Origin: Gammaproteobacteria bacterium
GTDB taxonomy: Bacteria > Pseudomonadota > Gammaproteobacteria > CAJXQU01
DNA length: 64,000 nt
Direction of reading: 5' to 3'
Assembly (NCBI GenBank): GCA_965238175.1
Contig: CBDEGZ010000003.1
Coordinates: 1,120,001-1,184,000 of the forward strand
Part shown: positions 34,713 to 59,799 of the stretch, one piece after another
How positions within the stretch are numbered: position 1 is the stretch's first letter
Layout: every line of letters starts with the position of its first letter
Notes under the pieces: model-generated
Told to the model about the DNA's origin: nothing
Database searches by the model: none
The model's input: only the letters and a program-made list of their open reading frames with translations
Program-made: the position numbers and the translations under genes

Positions 34713-34809
34713 ACCTGATGTGATGGTCTCCTCCCCCTTACGGCATGTAAGTGTCATGATTGAACCGTCATCAACACAATCAAAAGAGGAGAAGACCATC
34801 AAATCAGGT
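34713..34809 (+). mobile_element. 97-bp miniature element related to the left end of the IS1111-type element, with 22-bp terminal inverted repeats
   Basis: 34716-34798 matches IS positions 50729-50811 at 75/83 nt; ends ACCTGATGTGATGGTCTCCTCC / GGAGAAGACCATCAAATCAGGT (20/22 complementary). Confidence 0.85.
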
Positions 34810-50009: not shown

Positions 50010-50620
50010 TAAGACATTCTTAGCTTTTGTAATTCTTATTTCTTTGTTAGGAGGTACTTGGTGATTGAATAAAAATCAGCCCGAGAAATAGGTTGAATTA
50101 CAACAGATATTGTCGATTTTGGTTGAGGTGACTAAGGTCACTAAAGAGGATGTACAGCTTAGTAGCAAGGTAACGGGTGTTTAGTATTTGCACAACGTGC
50201 AAAATTACATTGTGAAATTTCTGAACAGGTGTTAAAGCGCAATGTAGAACTAGGTTAGTAAGGTAACATTAAACGATCAACCAATCCGTATTAATGTAGG
50301 TGAGTATGAAGATGTGCTTAGCGAAATGCAGATCAAAATATGATCAATAAAAAGTGGTAATTTGGAAGAGATCAAAAATTATTTGATATCGTCGAGTGAC
50401 AAATCACATTATTCCAACACGAAGTAAATTGGTAATGAAAGAGTTTAAGAAATAATCCTTAGTTTCGCAGTCAAAAATCGACGAAACTCATCGTCAATCA
50501 CGGTGCGATCAAAAATTACGTTTTATGGGATGAGTCGATCGTATTTGTATGATCTGGCTGATGAGACAAAGCGACAGCTAATGCAAATTCCGGGTGTTGT
50601 TGGTGGTAGAGAGGTTGGGA
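50010..50620 (+). pseudogene. Heavily eroded gene remnants, possibly an RND efflux adaptor plus transporter
   Basis: Stop-interrupted reading FLAFVILISLLGGTW*LNKNQP...ILVEVTKVTKEDVQLSSKVTG, and LYDLADETKRQLMQIPGV. Confidence 0.35.
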
Positions 50621-50813
50621 GTTATGGTTTGAAGTTGATCCACACCTGGTCTTTATCTGAGCCTTTAGACATACAAAACAGGCCATTTTTTATAAAAGCA
50701 AAAGTATTAGTCACAATTTAACTTAACCTGATGTGATGGTCTCCTCCCCCTAACGGCATCTAGGTGCCATGATTGAACTGACATACACACAATCAAAAGA
50801 GGAGAAGACCAAA

Positions 50814-51827
50814 ATGAAGACTACAACAATCGGGTTAGACATAGCAAAAAACGTATTTCATGCTGTCTGCTGTAATCAACAAGGGCGTATAATCAAAAAG
50901 AAAATGTTAAAGCGAGCGCAGGTACTCTCCTTTTTTCAATCTCAACCTCCTTGTTTAGTCGCAATAGAATCTTGTGCAACGTCACAGTATTGGGCCCGAG
51001 CGATACAACAACAGGGACATCAGGTGAAATTACTACCACCTCAGCATGTTAACGCATTTCTAATCGGCAATAAGAATGATTATAACGATGCCTTGGCCAT
51101 CGCCGTTGCTGCGAAACAACCTCATTTAAAAAGTGTGGGCATTAAATCAGTTGAGCAACAAGACAACCAGGCACAACATAAAGCAAGAGACTTAGCGGTC
51201 AGACAAAGAACCGCATTATGTAACCAAATGAGAGCGCTTGTTGCAGAATATGGCATTAGCCTTCGTCCCGGCCTAAATACCCTACGTCAATCTATCCCGT
51301 TGCTATTAAGTGATGAGAACGAACGGTTGTCCGTTACTTTCAAAAGGATACTGCGCCAGCTAAAGGAACAATGGCAATCACTTGATGCCTGTATTGCGAC
51401 ATTTGACCAATTGATCATTCAATCGGCAAAAAACAATGCGATTTGCCAACGCTTACAAACTATTCCAGGGTTTGGGCCGATGGTCTCGAGCGCGTATTTT
51501 AATGAAGTGGGAAACGGCGCTCATTATCACAAAGGGCGCGATGTGTCCGCCTCATTAGGACTTGTTCCACGACAGTACAGTAGTGGTGGTAAAGAGGTGC
51601 TACTGGGGATCAGTAAACGCGGCAATAAATACCTTCGTTGTTTGTTAATTCTAGGCGCGAAGGCCGTGGTATCAAGAGCCAAAACGAAAGGCGATAAACT
51701 GAGTCAATGGATTAATCGTTTAGTTGAGACGCGGGGGCATAATCGAGCGTGTGTGGCGTATGCCAACAAAATGGCAAGAATGGCCTGGGCTATAACGGTT
51801 TCTGGTGATGACTACTCACCGGCCTAA
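50814..51827 (+). CDS. IS1111-type DEDD recombinase/transposase
   Basis: IGLDIAK, AIESCA, KNDYND and YSSGG; GAGGAG RBS favours a start at 50814. Confidence 0.95.
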   Translation: MKTTTIGLDIAKNVFHAVCCNQQGRIIKKKMLKRAQVLSFFQSQPPCLVAIESCATSQYWARAIQQQGHQVKLLPPQHVNAFLIGNKNDYNDALAIAVAAKQPHLKSVGIKSVEQQDNQAQHKARDLAVRQRTALCNQMRALVAEYGISLRPGLNTLRQSIPLLLSDENERLSVTFKRILRQLKEQWQSLDACIATFDQLIIQSAKNNAICQRLQTIPGFGPMVSSAYFNEVGNGAHYHKGRDVSASLGLVPRQYSSGGKEVLLGISKRGNKYLRCLLILGAKAVVSRAKTKGDKLSQWINRLVETRGHNRACVAYANKMARMAWAITVSGDDYSPA

Positions 51828-52057
51828 ATAGAGAGAACAAATCATTTCAACGAATTGCGAAGGTAAAACTAAAGATGGCATAACAGGTCAAACCAGCCTA
51901 TTGAAAACCTGTCGAGCTCAGGGGTAACTAATACCGATAACCTGATAAGGAAAATAGGCGCGTAATACATCCAGGTCAGAAGTTGAAAACTTCATTGAAG
52001 GCCGTATATATGACAGCAATCCTGTCCCTGTTATCTGAATGTTTTATCTTGCAATAC
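51828..52057 (+). ncRNA. Predicted seekRNA/bridge RNA region of IS1111 copy 1; exact ends unknown
   Basis: Stem GCCTATT/AATAGGC encloses target-matching GAGCTCA and TAACCTGA; donor-matching ACATC and ATATATGA follow. Confidence 0.8.
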
Positions 52058-52083
52058 GGGAGGAGACCATATATGAGATCGGT

Positions 52084-52983
52084 TTAAGCCACGGTTGCTA
52101 ATGCCCGTTTTAAGTAATTAAATTCATCGCCAGACAAGTTCAAAGACGGCTTATTCTCTTTCAGACAATAAGCGATCAATCCACCGATAAGATTAAGCAT
52201 AAAACCATGTACAGAGCGGTGTCTGGAATGTTCTATCTGAGTAATGTTCTTCAACTGGTCATTAATGGTTTCAATAATAAAACGTCTGCTCAGCATGGCT
52301 CTGTCCCAGAGCGATGTAGCTTTTGCCTTCATGTTTTTTCGAACATTTGTCACCAACTCCACGCCTTTATCAAACAATTCGCTCGATAAGGCTTGGCTGA
52401 TATAGCCCTTATCCCCGTAAAGTTTGCCACTCATCGCCTTGCACAGCTCGGGAACAGGCTGACGGTCATCGATATTTCCCGGGGTGATTTTGGCTGCCAG
52501 GATATCCCCCTGATGATTGGTGATAAGGTGTAACTTGAAACCATAAAACCAACCCATTGTGCCTCGACCTCGCTGGGCGATGTCTTTGAAAACACGGTGG
52601 CGTGGAATACGGAGGTTGTGGCACACTTTTAAGGCGGTTGAATCAACAAACGCAACACCTGTGGGTTTCCCTTTAAGATAAGAAAAGTAGCTACATAAAG
52701 GAACGAGCACTGTCGGCATCACCTCCAGAAACCGCGTGTAGCTTAGCATCTGTGGAAAATCCTCGGCATAGAATTGAGCGATAAACCCTTTGTAGTAGTT
52801 CTTGAAATCGCGATGGTTGGAGTGATGAAACAGGATGATGATAGTCATGATTTCGCTGGCTTGCATTCGCCCAACTCGACGGCGTTTGCGTTGCCCATCG
52901 GTCAGTAATTGTTGTTCCCACAACGGTATGAAGTGCTGACAGAAGTCATCGACATCACAAAAGATTTCAACTAGTTTATCCAT
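52084..52983 (-). CDS. IS982-family DDE transposase
   Basis: IFCDVDDFC, FVDST, GWFYGFKLH, YGDKGY and RFIIETINDQLK motifs. Confidence 0.93.
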   Translation of the reverse strand: MDKLVEIFCDVDDFCQHFIPLWEQQLLTDGQRKRRRVGRMQASEIMTIIILFHHSNHRDFKNYYKGFIAQFYAEDFPQMLSYTRFLEVMPTVLVPLCSYFSYLKGKPTGVAFVDSTALKVCHNLRIPRHRVFKDIAQRGRGTMGWFYGFKLHLITNHQGDILAAKITPGNIDDRQPVPELCKAMSGKLYGDKGYISQALSSELFDKGVELVTNVRKNMKAKATSLWDRAMLSRRFIIETINDQLKNITQIEHSRHRSVHGFMLNLIGGLIAYCLKENKPSLNLSGDEFNYLKRALATVA

Positions 52984-53106
52984 TGGCTTGTTCTCCTTTT
53001 TTTTCAATTGTTTGGTCACAATTGATCTGATCGGGGGACAAGCCGTTAGTTCATTTCCTTAAGCCGAGTTGGGGTTAACTTAATAGAAATTGATAAAATC
53101 ACAGGC

Positions 53107-53141
53107 AAAAAAAAGCCTGGCAATAAATGCCAGGCTTTTTT
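53107..53141 (-). terminator. Intrinsic terminator of the cold-shock gene
   Basis: AAAAAAGCCTGGCA-loop-TGCCAGGCTTTTTT. Confidence 0.85.
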
Positions 53142-53159: not shown

Positions 53160-53363
53160 TTATACTTTCGTCACATTACTAGCTTGTGGACCTTTGGGAC
53201 CATCTTCAACGTCGTAAGAAACTTCGTCGCCTTCACCAAGGCTTTTGAAACCGTCGCCTTGAATTGCAGAAAAATGTACGAATACATCTGTGCTGCCATC
53301 AGCTGGTGAAATAAAGCCGAAGCCTTTTGAATCGTTGAACCATTTAACACTGCCAGTAGCCAT
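53160..53363 (-). CDS. Cold-shock protein (CspA family)
   Basis: [13 protein letters not shown] and [12 protein letters not shown] motifs. Confidence 0.96.
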
Positions 53364-55712: not shown

Positions 55713-56938
55713 TGTAGAAGTTTAGACCCAATCTGACACATCACTAAATCAAGCGGAGCGTAGCGACGCTTGATTTAGTGAGAGTTACCCGCTTTGATGT
55801 AACTGCAACGTAAACATCAAAACACAAAGAGGTAACTCTCATGATTCATACTAATGACAAAGTTATAAAACATAAAGTTGGTCTACTCAATCTCGCTGAA
55901 GAACTCGGCAATGTCTCAAAAGCCTGCAAGATGATGGGTTTGTCCAGAGATACATTTTATCGCTACAAAGAAGCGGCTGATGAAGGCGGTGTAGAAGCCT
56001 TGTTTGATCGTAATCGGCGTACCCCAAATCTTAAAAACAGAATCGACCCGGCTATTGAAACCGTTGTGCTCGAGTATGCACTGGAAGAGCCCGCACATGG
56101 TCAAACGCGCACCAGTAACGAGCTGCGCAAACGGGGAACATTTGTCTCACCCAGTGGCGTTCGTTGTATCTGGCTTCGTCATGGTCTTGCTTGCTTTAAA
56201 GATCGCCTGAAGGCATTGTCTGATAAGGTAGCTGGTGAAGGCTTGATCCTCACTGAGTCTCAAGTCGCGGCGATGGAACGCAAGAAAGACGACGATGAGG
56301 CTTGTGGCGAGATAGAGACGGCACACCCTGGTTATCTTGGCTCGCAAGATACTTACTATGTCGGTACTTTCAAAGGCATTGGTCGGGTTTATCAACAAAC
56401 GTTTGTTGATACTTACAGCAAGGTCGCTCACGCGAAACTGTACCCGACTAAAACACCGATTACGGCAGCTGACATGCTCAATGACCGCGTCCTCCCATTC
56501 TACGAAGAACAACGTTTGCCTATGTTGCGCATTTTGACAGATAGAGGGACGGAGTATTGTGGGCGAGCTGACCAGCATGATTATCAGCTTTATATGGCGT
56601 TGAACAATATCGAACACACCAAAACCAAGGTCAAATCACCTCAGACGAATGGTATTTGTGAGCGATTCCATAAGACGATCCTCAATGAGTTTTATCAAGT
56701 CGCTTTGCGTAAGAAAATTTACCAATCGATTGATGAACTGCAACTCGACCTTGACGAATGGTTGCTCAAATACAATACTCAACGAACTCACCAAGGCAAA
56801 ATGTGCTGCGGGAGGACGCCGATGGAAACACTCATCGACGGACAAGCTATCTGGAAGGAAAAGTTTGTGAATTAAACTTAACCTGACAGTCGGTTACTGA
56901 TAATTGGGTAACTGTCAGATCAAATCTGAATTTCTACA
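55713..56938 (+). mobile_element. IS481-family element, copy 1 (1226 bp)
   Basis: TGTAGAA...TTCTACA ends; 7-bp duplication GGTTATG (55706-55712 and 56939-56945). Confidence 0.93.
55841..56875 (+). CDS. IS481-family transposase
   Basis: HTH N-terminus; QDT, TDRGTEY and NGICERFH integrase core. Confidence 0.95.
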   Translation: MIHTNDKVIKHKVGLLNLAEELGNVSKACKMMGLSRDTFYRYKEAADEGGVEALFDRNRRTPNLKNRIDPAIETVVLEYALEEPAHGQTRTSNELRKRGTFVSPSGVRCIWLRHGLACFKDRLKALSDKVAGEGLILTESQVAAMERKKDDDEACGEIETAHPGYLGSQDTYYVGTFKGIGRVYQQTFVDTYSKVAHAKLYPTKTPITAADMLNDRVLPFYEEQRLPMLRILTDRGTEYCGRADQHDYQLYMALNNIEHTKTKVKSPQTNGICERFHKTILNEFYQVALRKKIYQSIDELQLDLDEWLLKYNTQRTHQGKMCCGRTPMETLIDGQAIWKEKFVN

Positions 56939-58183: not shown

Positions 58184-58303
58184 AAGTTTTGAGTTTAGAG
58201 GAATCTCAAAGGGAGCTTTGCACGAAATGAATAAGAGTTCAAAAAAGTATGCTGTTAAAGTTTTGCAGATAACTTATCCTGAGTTCATATATGGTCTCCT
58301 CCC

Positions 58304-58533
58304 GTATTGCAAGATAAAACATTCAGATAACAGGGACAGGATTGCTGTCATATATACGGCCTTCAATGAAGTTTTCAACTTCTGACCTGGATGTATTACG
58401 CGCCTATTTTCCTTATCAGGTTATCGGTATTAGTTACCCCTGAGCTCGACAGGTTTTCAATAGGCTGGTTTGACCTGTTATGCCATCTTTAGTTTTACCT
58501 TCGCAATTCGTTGAAATGATTTGTTCTCTCTAT
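58304..58533 (-). ncRNA. Predicted seekRNA/bridge RNA region of copy 2
   Basis: Reverse complement of 51828-52057. Confidence 0.8.
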
Positions 58534-59547
58534 TTAGGCCGGTGAGTAGTCATCACCAGAAACCGTTATAGCCCAGGCCATTCTTGCCATTTTGTTGGCA
58601 TACGCCACACACGCTCGATTATGCCCCCGCGTCTCAACTAAACGATTAATCCATTGACTCAGTTTATCGCCTTTCGTTTTGGCTCTTGATACCACGGCCT
58701 TCGCGCCTAGAATTAACAAACAACGAAGGTATTTATTGCCGCGTTTACTGATCCCCAGTAGCACCTCTTTACCACCACTACTGTACTGTCGTGGAACAAG
58801 TCCTAATGAGGCGGACACATCGCGCCCTTTGTGATAATGAGCGCCGTTTCCCACTTCATTAAAATACGCGCTCGAGACCATCGGCCCAAACCCTGGAATA
58901 GTTTGTAAGCGTTGGCAAATCGCATTGTTTTTTGCCGATTGAATGATCAATTGGTCAAATGTCGCAATACAGGCATCAAGTGATTGCCATTGTTCCTTTA
59001 GCTGGCGCAGTATCCTTTTGAAAGTAACGGACAACCGTTCGTTCTCATCACTTAATAGCAACGGGATAGATTGACGTAGGGTATTTAGGCCGGGACGAAG
59101 GCTAATGCCATATTCTGCAACAAGCGCTCTCATTTGGTTACATAATGCGGTTCTTTGTCTGACCGCTAAGTCTCTTGCTTTATGTTGTGCCTGGTTGTCT
59201 TGTTGCTCAACTGATTTAATGCCCACACTTTTTAAATGAGGTTGTTTCGCAGCAACGGCGATGGCCAAGGCATCGTTATAATCATTCTTATTGCCGATTA
59301 GAAATGCGTTAACATGCTGAGGTGGTAGTAATTTCACCTGATGTCCCTGTTGTTGTATCGCTCGGGCCCAATACTGTGACGTTGCACAAGATTCTATTGC
59401 GACTAAACAAGGAGGTTGAGATTGAAAAAAGGAGAGTACCTGCGCTCGCTTTAACATTTTCTTTTTGATTATACGCCCTTGTTGATTACAGCAGACAGCA
59501 TGAAATACGTTTTTTGCTATGTCTAACCCGATTGTTGTAGTCTTCAT
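58534..59547 (-). CDS. IS1111-type DEDD recombinase/transposase
   Basis: Identical translation to copy 1. Confidence 0.95.
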   Translation of the reverse strand: MKTTTIGLDIAKNVFHAVCCNQQGRIIKKKMLKRAQVLSFFQSQPPCLVAIESCATSQYWARAIQQQGHQVKLLPPQHVNAFLIGNKNDYNDALAIAVAAKQPHLKSVGIKSVEQQDNQAQHKARDLAVRQRTALCNQMRALVAEYGISLRPGLNTLRQSIPLLLSDENERLSVTFKRILRQLKEQWQSLDACIATFDQLIIQSAKNNAICQRLQTIPGFGPMVSSAYFNEVGNGAHYHKGRDVSASLGLVPRQYSSGGKEVLLGISKRGNKYLRCLLILGAKAVVSRAKTKGDKLSQWINRLVETRGHNRACVAYANKMARMAWAITVSGDDYSPA

Positions 59548-59799
59548 TTTGGTCTTCTCCTCTTTTGATTGTGTGTATGTCAGTTCAATCATGGCACCTA
59601 GATGCCGTTAGGGGGAGGAGACCATCACATCAGGTTAACTTAAGCAATTCAGATCTGGAGAAACATCTGGCAGAAGCTACACGGTTCCGTTGTTTCGTGG
59701 ATTTAAGGTTAATCATCGAAATGGGTTTATGGCGTTTAATCACTGTCTTGTAAAGTGTTTATTAGTATTTTCATGTCAGAGTCTGTTCTTAAGTCCATT

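What the first reader, a model, noticed from the sequence alone, without database searches (positions are those of the whole stretch)
50719..53082. IS1111-type element inserted precisely into the terminal inverted repeat of an IS982
Seen: removing 50729-52073 rejoins ACC (50726-50728) with TGAGATCGGTTTAA (52074-52087). This rebuilds an IR matching the other IS982 end, ACCCCAACTCGGCTTAA. The nested structure is flanked by the 7-bp repeat TAACTTA (50719-50725 and 53076-53082). Known: IS1111-group members IS4321/IS5075 target the IRs of Tn21-like transposons. Inference: this element parasitises IS982 ends and probably immobilises the host IS until it excises. I do not recall IS982 IRs as a described target class, but I could not check.
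Basis: partly seen in the sequence, partly recalled or inferred. Interest (0 to 1): 0.85.

Follow-up and report, generated by a model that had tools for sequence, protein, structure and literature searches.

The report
RNA-guided IS targeting IS982-type transposon ends
A small jumping gene of the IS1111 kind, which appears to pick its landing site with its own guide RNA, has inserted into the first few bases of the end-repeat of another jumping gene (IS982) and of that gene's miniature relatives; the mechanism is known, but this kind of landing site did not turn up in the papers searched.

Summary
Window 50729-52073 is a 1345-bp IS1111-family element. It has 13-bp subterminal inverted repeats, 7-bp and 3-bp terminal extensions, a 337-aa DEDD transposase and a 246-bp 3' non-coding region. 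It sits between base 3 and base 4 of the terminal inverted repeat (IR) of a 1005-bp IS982-family element, and the 7-bp duplication TAACTTA flanks the nested pair.

The genome holds 25 near-identical copies. All left flanks end AACC, and all 24 readable right flanks begin TGA; the consensus is TAACC|TGAACTCGGGATAAG. By my classification, 17 of the 24 lie in IS982-type termini: 3 autonomous IS982-family copies, 10 copies of a ~207-bp MITE, and 4 other such ends. The other 7 lie elsewhere but share the core.

The non-coding region folds into a two-loop bridge/seek RNA. Its loop segments match both strands of the target and of the element's own ends. Across 44 distinct relatives these segments covary with their flanks (0 of 5000 permutations reach the observed score).

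Relatives in a Colwellia MAG and in Paraglaciecola sit at the same position in the same IR type.

Whether the insertion immobilises the host element was not tested.

Verdict: a new member of a known kind, with a target class not found in print.

The parts
50719..50725 (.). Left copy of the 7-bp target-site duplication (TAACTTA) made by the IS982 host. Its last two bases (TA) are part of the motif read by the insert's guide.
   Evidence: MITEs of the same IR type have 6-bp TAnnTA duplications.
50726..50728 (.). ACC, the first 3 bp of the IS982 transposase-distal terminal IR, cut off from the rest by the insert.
   Evidence: Uninterrupted relatives begin ACC.
50729..52073 (+). IS1111-family insertion sequence, 1345 bp. 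It is one of 25 near-identical copies in the genome.
50729..50735 (+). 7-bp left terminal extension TGATGTG. Its first TG(A) is also the first TG(A) of the right flank, so it is the shared core where crossover is inferred.
   Evidence: One search gives 7 bp left and 3 bp right as the family rule. In most relatives listed the first two bases of the left end equal the first two of the right flank (read by eye, not tallied).
50736..50748 (+). Left subterminal inverted repeat, ATGGTCTCCTCCC.
   Evidence: 13-bp perfect pair.
50814..51827 (+). DEDD transposase / bridge recombinase gene, 337 aa, with an AGGAG ribosome-binding site upstream. It contains the GLVPRQYSSG motif.
   Evidence: Relatives align from residue 1.
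51896..52017 (+). Core of the predicted bridge/seek RNA: two stem, internal-loop, hairpin modules.
   Evidence: 26 consensus pairs, 18 with changes on both sides that keep the pair, from 32 sequences.
51911..51922 (+). 5' side of loop 1, the target 'T' guide. CGAGCTCAGG (51913-51922) is complementary to the top strand CC-TGA-GCTCG. It fits the consensus target at 9 of 10 positions and this IS982 end at 9 of 10.
51936..51947 (+). 3' side of loop 1, the target 'B' guide. TAACCTGA (51938-51945) is identical to the top strand of the left flank plus core.
51962..51973 (+). 5' side of loop 2, a donor guide. TACATC (51966-51971) is complementary to GATGT in the left end.
   Evidence: (41 of 44 complementary at the variable position).
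52004..52015 (+). 3' side of loop 2, a donor guide. ATATATGA (52006-52013) is identical to the right-end tip plus core.
52049..52054 (+). TTGCAA, a -35-like hexamer. In a circle with abutted ends it would lie 17 nt upstream of TA|TGAT, forming a junction promoter.
   Evidence: Read. Junction promoters are reported for the family. Not tested here.
52058..52073 (+). Right subterminal inverted repeat GGGAGGAGACCAT (52058-52070) plus the 3-bp extension ATA.
52074..53075 (-). The rest of the IS982-family host element. With ACC it is 1005 bp. The remainder of the distal IR is at 52074-52090 and the proximal IR at 53059-53075.
52084..53019 (-). IS982-family DDE transposase ORF (311 aa from the GTG start). 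An ATG with a ribosome-binding site at 52983 would give 299 aa.
53076..53082 (.). Right copy of the TAACTTA target-site duplication.
58288..59632 (-). Second copy of the same IS1111-family element in the window (C3:1178288-1179632). Its flanks are TTAACC | TGAACTCAGGATAAGTT, an IS982-type IR-like end.

Best explanation
Window 50729-52073 is an IS1111-family insertion sequence, a member of the IS110 superfamily of RNA-guided DEDD recombinases.

Its 3' non-coding region encodes a two-loop bridge/seek RNA:
- In loop 1, CGAGCUCAGG pairs with the top strand of the target across the core and right flank. UAACCUGA pairs with the bottom strand of the left flank plus core.
- In loop 2, UACAUC and AUAUAUGA read the element's own left and right tips.

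The motif specified in this way is TAACC|TGA followed preferably by (A/G)(C/A/T)T. This is the tip of the terminal inverted repeat of IS982-family elements and their MITE derivatives, together with the TA that these hosts leave beside themselves in their TAnnTA target duplication.

The element therefore lands between base 3 and base 4 of such an IR. It always lands in one orientation, with its transposase-proximal end facing outwards.

Shown here: the anatomy, the target logo, the host classes, the RNA structure, and the covariation of guides with flanks.

Inferred from the family:
- the RNA is made and bound by the recombinase;
- the element moves through a circle whose junction forms the promoter TTGCAA-17 nt-TATGAT;
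- excision restores the host IR;
- while the insert is present, that host end cannot be used by the IS982 transposase.
For: Family features:
- 13-bp perfect subterminal IRs, 7-bp and 3-bp extensions, a downstream 246-bp non-coding region, a 337-aa transposase and the GLxPxxxxSG motif (judged against the description in PMC11187229 read).
- Matches to NF033542, PF01548 and PF02371.

Target:
- 25 of 25 left flanks end AACC and 24 of 25 end TAACC. All 24 readable right flanks begin TGA.
- Among AACCTGA sites, those with T at +6 are 22 occupied and 220 empty. The rest are 2 occupied and 604 empty.
- AACCTGACAG sites, mostly inside the IS481-family element, are 1 occupied and 72 empty.

Hosts:
- By my classification, 17 of 24 copies are in IS982-type ends.
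- Tips fitting a generic IS982-type pattern: 14 occupied and 8 empty when they begin ACCTGA, and 0 occupied of 25 when those bases differ.
- Host duplications flank the composites, so the IS1111-type element is the later arrival.

Guides:
- The exact 8-mers TAACCTGA and ATATATGA are in the non-coding region.
- The complement of the top strand lies 5' of the bottom-strand match, and the two overlap at the crossover. This is the arrangement reported for IS1111-type seekRNAs.
- At homologous windows in 44 distinct relatives, the mean cognate match is 7.25 nt (T) and 6.11 nt (B). Non-cognate pairs give 3.45 and 2.99. None of 5000 label permutations reaches the observed sum.
- Left-end position 6 is complementary to the donor guide in 41 of 44 elements.
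- The consensus fold has 26 pairs, 18 with compensatory changes.

Independent cases:
- L052 (Colwellia MAG, 77% identity) has flanks TTAACC|TGAGATCGGTTTAAGC, and its T guide CGATCTCAG is perfectly complementary to that end.
- L057 (Paraglaciecola, 68% identity) lies in the IR of a ~240-bp MITE with a TAAATA duplication.
Against: - 7 of 24 copies are not in IS982-type ends: 3 abut ACCTGAAC plus an IS481-family end, 1 is inside that IS, and 3 are in unique DNA.
- The T guide mismatches the commonest target at +4 (a guide C facing A in 19 of 24 sites). Perfect-match sites are 1 occupied and 5 empty, so pairing rules are looser than a simple complement.
- 8 ACCTGA-type tips are empty.
- L052 and L053 have no IS982 transposase within 2.5 kb, and no far IR was found there.
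- The relatives share ancestry, so the permutation and 41-of-44 figures overstate independence.
- The windows of 7 of the 51 anchored elements were misplaced by my anchor. They were kept in the test, which lowers the cognate score rather than raising it.
- No experiment or read-level evidence here shows the RNA, the circle, excision, or loss of host mobility.
- The two identical IS982::insert composites could come from movement or duplication of the composite rather than from two separate hits.
Confidence: 0.85

Rival explanations
1. The element has no special relation to IS982. It simply targets a short motif of about 10-12 nt that happens to occur in several repeats, and the IS982 hit in the window is one incidental case.
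For: - 7 of 24 copies lie outside IS982-type ends.
- Part of the motif (TA) lies outside the host element.
- Most relatives at 50-58% identity sit in unrelated sites that look REP-like (GTAGGT|CGGATTAGC). 'REP-like' is my reading of the motif and was not tested.
Against: - 17 of 24 copies, and 3 of the 5 roughly full-length IS982-family copies, are in such ends.
- The four closest relatives with the B guide TAACCTGA (this element, L052, L053, L057) come from different genera. Two of the other three sit in the same IR type.
- The L052 T guide is a perfect complement of this very IS982 IR.
Confidence: 0.12
2. The nesting is the other way round. IS982-type elements and MITEs insert next to the right end of the IS1111-type element, or the pair moves together as one composite.
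For: - Both 100% identical IS982 copies carry the insert, and no empty identical copy exists.
- Three loci share the same right-hand junctions.
Against: - The first 3 bp of the host IR (ACC) lie on the far side of the insert.
- Host duplications (TAACTTA, TAAGTA, TAACTA, TATTTA, TAAATA) flank the whole composite.
- Uninterrupted tips read ACCTGA without a break.
- The same insert is found in at least five different host contexts, each with its own left flank.
Confidence: 0.02
3. Target choice is made by the protein alone, and the matches in the non-coding region are chance or serve another role such as regulation.
For: - No expression data were obtained here.
- The single-sequence fold of the region is not unusually stable (z = -1.19).
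Against: - Guide and flank covary at fixed positions.
- The two-loop structure carries compensatory pairs.
- Published experiments on other IS1111 members show that the RNA is essential and programmable (abstract and section 9 of PMC11187229).
Confidence: 0.01

Closest known systems
[quoted passage not shown]
   Same: An IS1111-family element inserts at a fixed position and in a fixed orientation inside the terminal IR of another transposable element. It has subterminal IRs and a downstream non-coding region.
   Different: The host here is an IS982-family insertion sequence and its MITEs, not a Tn3/Tn21-family transposon. The cut is only 3 bp from the tip, and the recognised motif extends 2 bp into the host's flanking duplication. 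My knowledge of IS4321/IS5075 rests on the title of Partridge & Hall 2003, seen in a reference list, and on recall. The paper itself was not held.
IS1111 of Coxiella burnetii inserting into QMITE2
   Same: A family member uses a MITE family as its main landing pad. 20 of 21 IS1111 copies are associated with QMITE2 (passages of PMC5896051).
   Different: According to those passages, the target there is a GTAG REP palindrome inside the MITE. Here it is the tip of the terminal IR, which the MITE shares with an autonomous IS982-family element.
ISEc11, ISKpn4/ISPst6 and ISPa11 seekRNA systems, and the IS621 bridge RNA
   Same: A DEDD recombinase works with a structured RNA from the non-coding end. 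Short segments match both strands of the target and overlap at the crossover. The order is top-strand complement first, as stated for IS1111-type elements. The layout is two loops, one for the target and one for the donor.
   Different: The targets differ: a short linear site, attC sites and REP sequences. The RNA here was inferred from sequence and comparison only and was not observed.
L052 (Colwellia MAG), L053 (Shewanella frigidimarina) and L057 (Paraglaciecola algarum) elements
   Same: Their transposases are 68-77% identical to this one. They have the same ends and the same B guide, TAACCTGA. L052 and L057 sit at the same position in the same IR type.
   Different: Their T guides differ by one or two bases: CGATCTCAG, CGAGTTCAG and AGAGTTCAG, against CGAGCTCAG here. 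Each was found as a single copy in its record.

Membership tests
IS1111 family (within IS110) | DEDD (RuvC-like) N-terminal domain plus the PF02371 C-terminal domain | tested here: met
   PF01548 at 3.6e-16 and PF02371 at 6.4e-20. NF033542 at 302.9 bits against a cut-off of 140.
IS1111 family (within IS110) | Subterminal inverted repeats of about 11-13 bp, with terminal extensions of 7 bp (left) and 3 bp (right) | tested here: met
   ATGGTCTCCTCCC at 50736-48 pairs with GGGAGGAGACCAT at 52058-70. The extensions are TGATGTG and ATA. The criterion is as stated.
IS1111 family (within IS110) | The long non-coding region lies downstream of tnp, and the transposase is 330-350 aa | tested here: met
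   246 bp downstream and 337 aa.
IS1111 family (within IS110) | GL-P----S(T)G motif in the C-terminal domain | tested here: met
   GLVPRQYSSG is read in the translation.
IS1111 family (within IS110) | One specific target, one orientation, and no true target duplication | tested here: met
   All 24 readable copies share the same junctions and the same orientation relative to the motif. Only the shared core TG(A) repeats.
IS1111 family (within IS110) | Circular intermediate with abutted ends that forms a promoter | not testable with these tools
   The sequence would give TTGCAA-17 nt-TATGAT at the junction (read). No circle junction was seen in the contigs laid.
seekRNA / bridge RNA | Segments complementary to both strands of the target, overlapping at the crossover, with the top-strand complement lying 5' in IS1111-type elements | tested here: met
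   CGAGCTCAGG at 51913-22 lies 5' of TAACCTGA at 51938-45.
seekRNA / bridge RNA | Guides covary with the target and donor across relatives | tested here: met
   None of 5000 permutations reaches the observed cognate score. 41 of 44 are complementary at the donor position.
seekRNA / bridge RNA | A conserved structure with internal loops that carry the guides | tested here: met
   26 pairs, 18 with compensatory changes, and the guides lie on the unpaired loop sides. No Rfam family matched.
seekRNA / bridge RNA | The RNA is expressed, bound by the recombinase and needed for movement | not testable with these tools
   This needs RNA sequencing and a transposition assay.
IS982 family (the host element) | IS982-type DDE transposase | tested here: met
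   NF033520 at 279.4 bits against a cut-off of 130. PF13612 at 5.5e-78.
IS982 family (the host element) | Terminal inverted repeats and a short target duplication | tested here: met
   The rebuilt end matches the far end at 12 of 17 positions. The duplication is the 7-bp TAACTTA. The second copy has TAGTTA. The range typical of the family is recalled, not checked.
MITE derived from an IS982-type element | Short, with no transposase, terminal IRs like an autonomous element, and target duplications | tested here: met
   The reference MITE is 204 bp plus the split triplet. Its IR tip is identical over 18 nt to the proximal IR of the IS982 relative at C3:1090211. Its duplications are 6-bp TAnnTA. 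9 copies cover at least 80% of the reference. Mobilisation by the IS982 transposase is inferred.

The most novel reading that the evidence does not exclude
This clade of IS1111-family elements may be a specialised hyperparasite of IS982-type transposons across several marine gammaproteobacterial genera.

- Its guide RNA reads across the junction of the host's IR tip and the TA left by the host's own target duplication, so it recognises only integrated host copies.
- Insertion 3 bp from the tip would switch that host end off in a reversible way, acting as a brake on the spread of IS982 elements and their MITEs.
- In this genome the T guide (CGAGCUCAG) is a one-mismatch compromise between two host IR classes. 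These are ...TGAACTCG on the MITEs and one IS982 relative, and ...TGAGATCG on this IS982. Relatives carry the two perfectly matched versions (L053 and L052).
Probability: 0.25. Interest if true: 0.6.

Novelty: new member of a known kind. Interest (0 to 1): 0.42.

Why it matters
This is a natural, multi-copy example of RNA-guided recombination aimed at the working end of another transposon family.

It offers three things:
- A ready-made specificity table. Occupied and empty sites in one genome show which positions matter: AACC and TG are invariant, T at +6 is strongly preferred, and ACC to ATC or TG to CC goes with no occupancy.
- A short natural series of reprogrammed guides in close relatives.
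- A testable case of one mobile element possibly controlling another.

For genome annotation, it explains why IS982-type ends and MITEs in this genome look truncated by 3 bp.

It does not change what is known about the mechanism.

Tried and rejected
- **Rfam.** A scan of 50600-52200 at E <= 1 gave only a chance hit outside the element, so no curated family covers this RNA.
- **Single-sequence fold.** The fold of 51880-52073 was not unusually stable (z = -1.19). I relied on the comparative fold instead.
- **Whole-region exact matching.** An exact-match matrix over whole non-coding regions of 6 elements was too noisy, with chance 9-mers. I replaced it with windows at homologous positions.
- **Loose motif search.** A 13-mer search with 3 mismatches gave 750 mostly random hits and was replaced. 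The first 'occupied' pattern was mis-sliced and gave 0; one search corrects it.
- **Wrapped flank.** The right flank printed for the copy at the start of contig C3 is an artefact of wrapping a contig that is not closed. That row was dropped, which is why n = 24.
- **Plasmids.** A megablast of the element against the plasmid collection gave no match.
- **Sequencing runs.** No RNA holder is listed. All runs laid were contigs. The IS collapses into one repeat contig. No contig joins ACC to TGAGATCGG and none joins the right end to the left end, so nothing can be said about excision or circles. X4 laid nothing. X5 holds only a diverged relative with a different flank.
- **Relatives in the same genus and class.** Among 41 genomes, none holds this IS; the best match is 53% identical.
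- **Papers.**
  - PMC11187229: I read the outline and sections 4, 6, 9 and 13.
  - PMC5896051: I saw passages from a term search, 12 of 19 places.
  - PMC11208160: I saw passages from a term search, 5 places.
  - All other papers: search listings only.
  - Partridge & Hall 2003 was not held.
  - Supplements are closed. The target logos and tables of the seekRNA and bridge-RNA papers could list an IS-end target that I could not see.
  - ISfinder and TnPedia could not be consulted, so I do not know whether this element or its target already has an entry there.
- **Not used.** Structure prediction, complex prediction and the large protein searches were not used, because the families were clear.
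Full report
**1. The observation**

- TAACTTA lies at 50719-50725 and at 53076-53082.
- ACC lies at 50726-50728.
- The insert runs from 50729 to 52073.
- TGAGATCGGTTTAA starts at 52074.
- The far end (53059-53075) reads ACCCCAACTCGGCTTAA on the minus strand.

The rebuilt near end matches the far end at 12 of 17 positions.

The insert encodes a protein with PF01548 and PF02371. It scores 302.9 bits on NCBIfam's 'IS110 family RNA-guided transposase' model, against a cut-off of 140. The host encodes an IS982-family transposase: NF033520 at 279.4 bits against a cut-off of 130, and PF13612.

**2. The insert is a textbook IS1111-family element**

The introduction and first results section of PMC11187229 define the family by four features:
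- subterminal inverted repeats of 11-13 bp;
- terminal extensions of 7 bp on the left and 3 bp on the right;
- a long non-coding region downstream of the transposase gene;
- a transposase of 330-350 aa with a GL-P----S(T)G motif.

Here the repeats are ATGGTCTCCTCCC (50736-48) and GGGAGGAGACCAT (52058-70), a perfect 13-bp pair. The extensions are TGATGTG and ATA. The non-coding region is 246 bp. The protein from the ATG at 50814 is 337 aa and contains GLVPRQYSSG. Relatives align from residue 1 of that reading, so 50814 is the likely start, not the upstream ATG at 50769.

**3. All copies in the genome**

The window is C3:1120001-1184000 of a 3.35-Mb assembly. The element occurs 25 times at about 100% identity: 24 complete copies and one cut by the start of the contig.
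- All 25 left flanks end AACC, and 24 of 25 end TAACC.
- All 24 readable right flanks begin TGA.
- After TGA the next three bases are ACT in 14 copies, ATT in 4, GAT in 2, and ACC, GCT, CAG and TTT in 1 each.
- The consensus is TAACC|TGAACTCGGGATAAG.

The element itself also begins TGA, so the junction can be drawn up to 3 bp either way. In most relatives listed the first two bases of the left end equal the first two of the right flank; I read this by eye and did not tally it. It points to a two-base core where the strands are exchanged. No further duplication is made.

**4. What the target is**

I classified the 24 readable sites from BLAST against reference elements and by inspection.

| Site class | Copies |
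|---|---|
| IR of an autonomous IS982-family copy | 3 |
| The ~207-bp MITE family | 10 |
| Other ends or solo repeats with the same IR tip | 4 |
| Abutting ACCTGAAC next to an IS481-family end | 3 |
| Inside the IS481-family element | 1 |
| Unique DNA | 3 |

- The three autonomous hosts are the two identical IS982 copies, hit in the transposase-distal IR, and an 87% relative at C3:1090211, hit in the transposase-proximal IR.
- The MITE's IR tip is identical over 18 nt to the proximal IR of that relative. Three of the ten MITE copies are truncated by an IS481-family element.
- The IS481-family element has 59 copies covering at least 80% of its reference.

The first three rows give 17 of 24 in IS982-type termini.

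The MITEs carry 6-bp duplications of the form TAnnTA: TAAGTA, TACTTA-type, TAACTA, TATTTA and TAAATA. This matches the two IS982 copies, which have TAGTTA and TAACTTA. It explains why TA nearly always precedes ACC. These duplications flank the composite of host plus insert, so the IS1111-type element arrived second.

**5. A natural specificity experiment**

- Among uninterrupted tips fitting a generic IS982-type pattern, 8 begin ACCTGA and 25 begin otherwise (ACCCCA, ACCTCA, ACCTAA, ATCTGA and others).
- 14 occupied tips fit the same pattern, and all begin ACC|TGA. Occupancy is therefore 14 of 22 against 0 of 25.
- Within the autonomous copies, the three IRs with TG at positions 4-5 are all occupied. 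The IRs reading ACCCCA or ACCTCA are all empty.
- The 8-mer alone is not enough. AACCTGACAG sites, mostly inside the IS481-family element, are 1 occupied and 72 empty.
- Sites with T at +6 are 22 occupied and 220 empty, against 2 and 604 for the rest. These sites are not independent, because many are repeats.

**6. The guide RNA**

PMC11187229 (section 9) reports that IS1111-type seekRNAs carry a segment complementary to the top strand of the target. It lies 5' of a segment complementary to the bottom strand, and the two overlap in the target.

Here CGAGCTCAGG (51913-22) is complementary to CC-TGA-GCTCG. TAACCTGA (51938-45) equals the top strand of the left flank plus core. They are separated by a small hairpin.

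A second pair reads the element's own ends:
- TACATC (51966-71) is complementary to GATGT of the left end.
- ATATATGA (52006-13) equals the right tip plus core.

**7. Covariation**

I fetched 80 relatives at 49-78% protein identity from named public genomes and five more from unnamed handles. With the window's own element that makes 86.
- 66 gave both ends.
- 60 of those had canonical ends.
- 51 of those could be anchored.
- These gave 44 distinct guide pairs.

At the homologous windows, the longest cognate match averages 7.25 nt for the T guide and 6.11 nt for the B guide. Non-cognate pairs average 3.45 and 2.99. None of 5000 permutations of target labels reaches the observed sum. Seven mis-anchored elements were left in, which works against the result.

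Examples:
- L070 has the target GTAGGT|CGGATTAGG with guides GCTAATCCGAC and TAGGTCGA.
- L064 has the target TAGGGT|CGAATTCAT with guides AAATTCGAC and AGGGTCGA.

On the donor side, the variable sixth base of the left end is complementary to the guide base in 41 of 44 elements.

A consensus fold of 32 sequences gives two stem, internal-loop, hairpin modules with 26 pairs. 18 of these keep pairing through changes on both sides, and the four guide segments lie on the unpaired loop sides. This is the two-loop layout described for bridge RNAs. The location in the right end agrees with what PMC11208160 states for the IS1111 group (passages).

The relatives share ancestry, so these figures overstate independence.

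**8. The same habit in other genera**

- L052 (Colwellia MAG, 77% identity) has flanks TTAACC|TGAGATCGGTTTAAGC. This is the same IR tip as in the window, cut at the same place. Its T guide CGATCTCAG is a perfect complement. No IS982 transposase or far IR was found within 2.5 kb, so it may be a solo end.
- L057 (Paraglaciecola algarum, 68% identity) lies in the IR of a ~240-bp MITE. The near IR is ACC|TGAATACTGGATAAGCC, the far IR is ACCTGAGTTCTGGATAAGGA, and the duplication is TAAATA.
- L053 (Shewanella frigidimarina, 76% identity) has TAACC|TGAACTTGAG. Its T guide, CGAGTTCAG, would fit the MITE consensus of the present genome perfectly.

More distant relatives (50-58% identity) mostly sit in GTAGGT|CGGATTAGC-type sites, which look REP-like to me (not tested). 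The clade therefore seems to have been retargeted.

**9. How it most likely works**

Shown here: the anatomy, the motif, the hosts, the RNA structure and the covariation.

Inferred from published work on other members:
- the RNA is made and bound by the recombinase;
- the element excises as a circle with abutted ends;
- the circle inserts where loop 1 pairs with both strands around a TG core.

The abutted ends would read TTGCAA (52049-54), then 17 nt, then TA|TGAT, which is a near-consensus promoter. In the integrated state the last hexamer is TATGAG or TATGAA.

The insert separates ACC from the rest of the IR by 1345 bp, so that end should be unusable by the IS982 transposase until precise excision. 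I think this likely (about 0.6-0.7) but did not test it.

**10. Comparison and novelty**

The closest known cases are:
- IS4321/IS5075 in the IRs of Tn21-family transposons. I saw only the title in a reference list; the paper was not held.
- IS1111 itself in a REP palindrome inside QMITE2 of Coxiella burnetii (passages of PMC5896051).

Other described target classes are a short linear site, attC sites and REP sequences.

Five searches returned no paper whose listing describes an IS982-type or other IS terminus as a target of this family. Supplements, ISfinder and TnPedia could not be checked.

I file this as a new member of a known kind with a target class I did not find in print. It is interesting to specialists as a natural specificity data set and as a possible case of one transposon regulating another. 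It is not a surprise in mechanism.

**11. Open points**

- The T guide places a C opposite the A found at +4 in 19 of 24 targets. Perfectly matched sites are rare, and only 1 of 6 is occupied.
- Eight good tips are empty, several of them the second end of a MITE whose first end is occupied.
- Three loci share the junction ACCTGAAC|TGTAGAAG with the IS481-family element. I did not resolve how that junction arose.

Noticed in passing
C3:1051578-1052803 and 58 other places, including window sites near 56879 (+) and 62318 (-): An IS481-family element of about 1226 bp (NF033577 at 278.4 bits). 59 copies cover at least 80% of the reference. Each carries TAACCTGACAGTCGG just after its transposase gene. 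This motif contains the IS1111-type 8-mer core, yet only 1 such site is occupied against 72 empty.
   Followed up: partly
C3:945276, 1052809 and 2865990 (right flanks): Three IS1111-type copies at different loci share the junction ACC|TGAAC followed directly by the IS481-family end TGTAGAAGTTTAGACCC. Three others share 36 bp of MITE end followed by the other IS481-family end. At C3:1050196-1054153 both ends of one such MITE-plus-IS481 composite are occupied in inverted orientation, and a TAAGTA duplication flanks the whole. How these junctions arose was not resolved.
   Followed up: partly
window 34716-34798 (C3:1154716-1154798): An 83-bp remnant, 90% identical to the left end of the IS1111-type element (TGATTTGATGGTCTTCTCC...), again next to TAACC. 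More decayed pieces lie at C3:2357911-2358383 (79% identity), 2897431-2897503 and 1393274-1393339.
   Followed up: no
Relatives L051-L128: In the donor loop, the three bases after ATA(T/G)A equal the first three bases of the right flank in 24 of 44 elements, and the first three of the left end in 17 of 44. In 17 they match the flank but not the left end. This segment may therefore also read the target side of the right junction.
   Followed up: partly
C3:393937-393965: A 27-bp mini-palindrome made of two IS982-type IR tips back to back (ACCTGAGCTCGGGGTAAGAATTCAGGT). One tip is occupied. The other is a perfect match to the T guide and is empty.
   Followed up: no
window 53160-53363 (-): A 67-aa ORF beginning [18 protein letters not shown]. 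It looks like a cold-shock-domain protein (from recall, not searched). A hairpin followed by a T-run lies at about 53105-53140, immediately beside the IS982 end.
   Followed up: no
Run X5, contig record 16: A run with the same species label holds a 1393-nt contig of a diverged IS1111-type element whose right flank reads CGGAATGAC. This is the same flank as in relatives L065 and L067.
   Followed up: no
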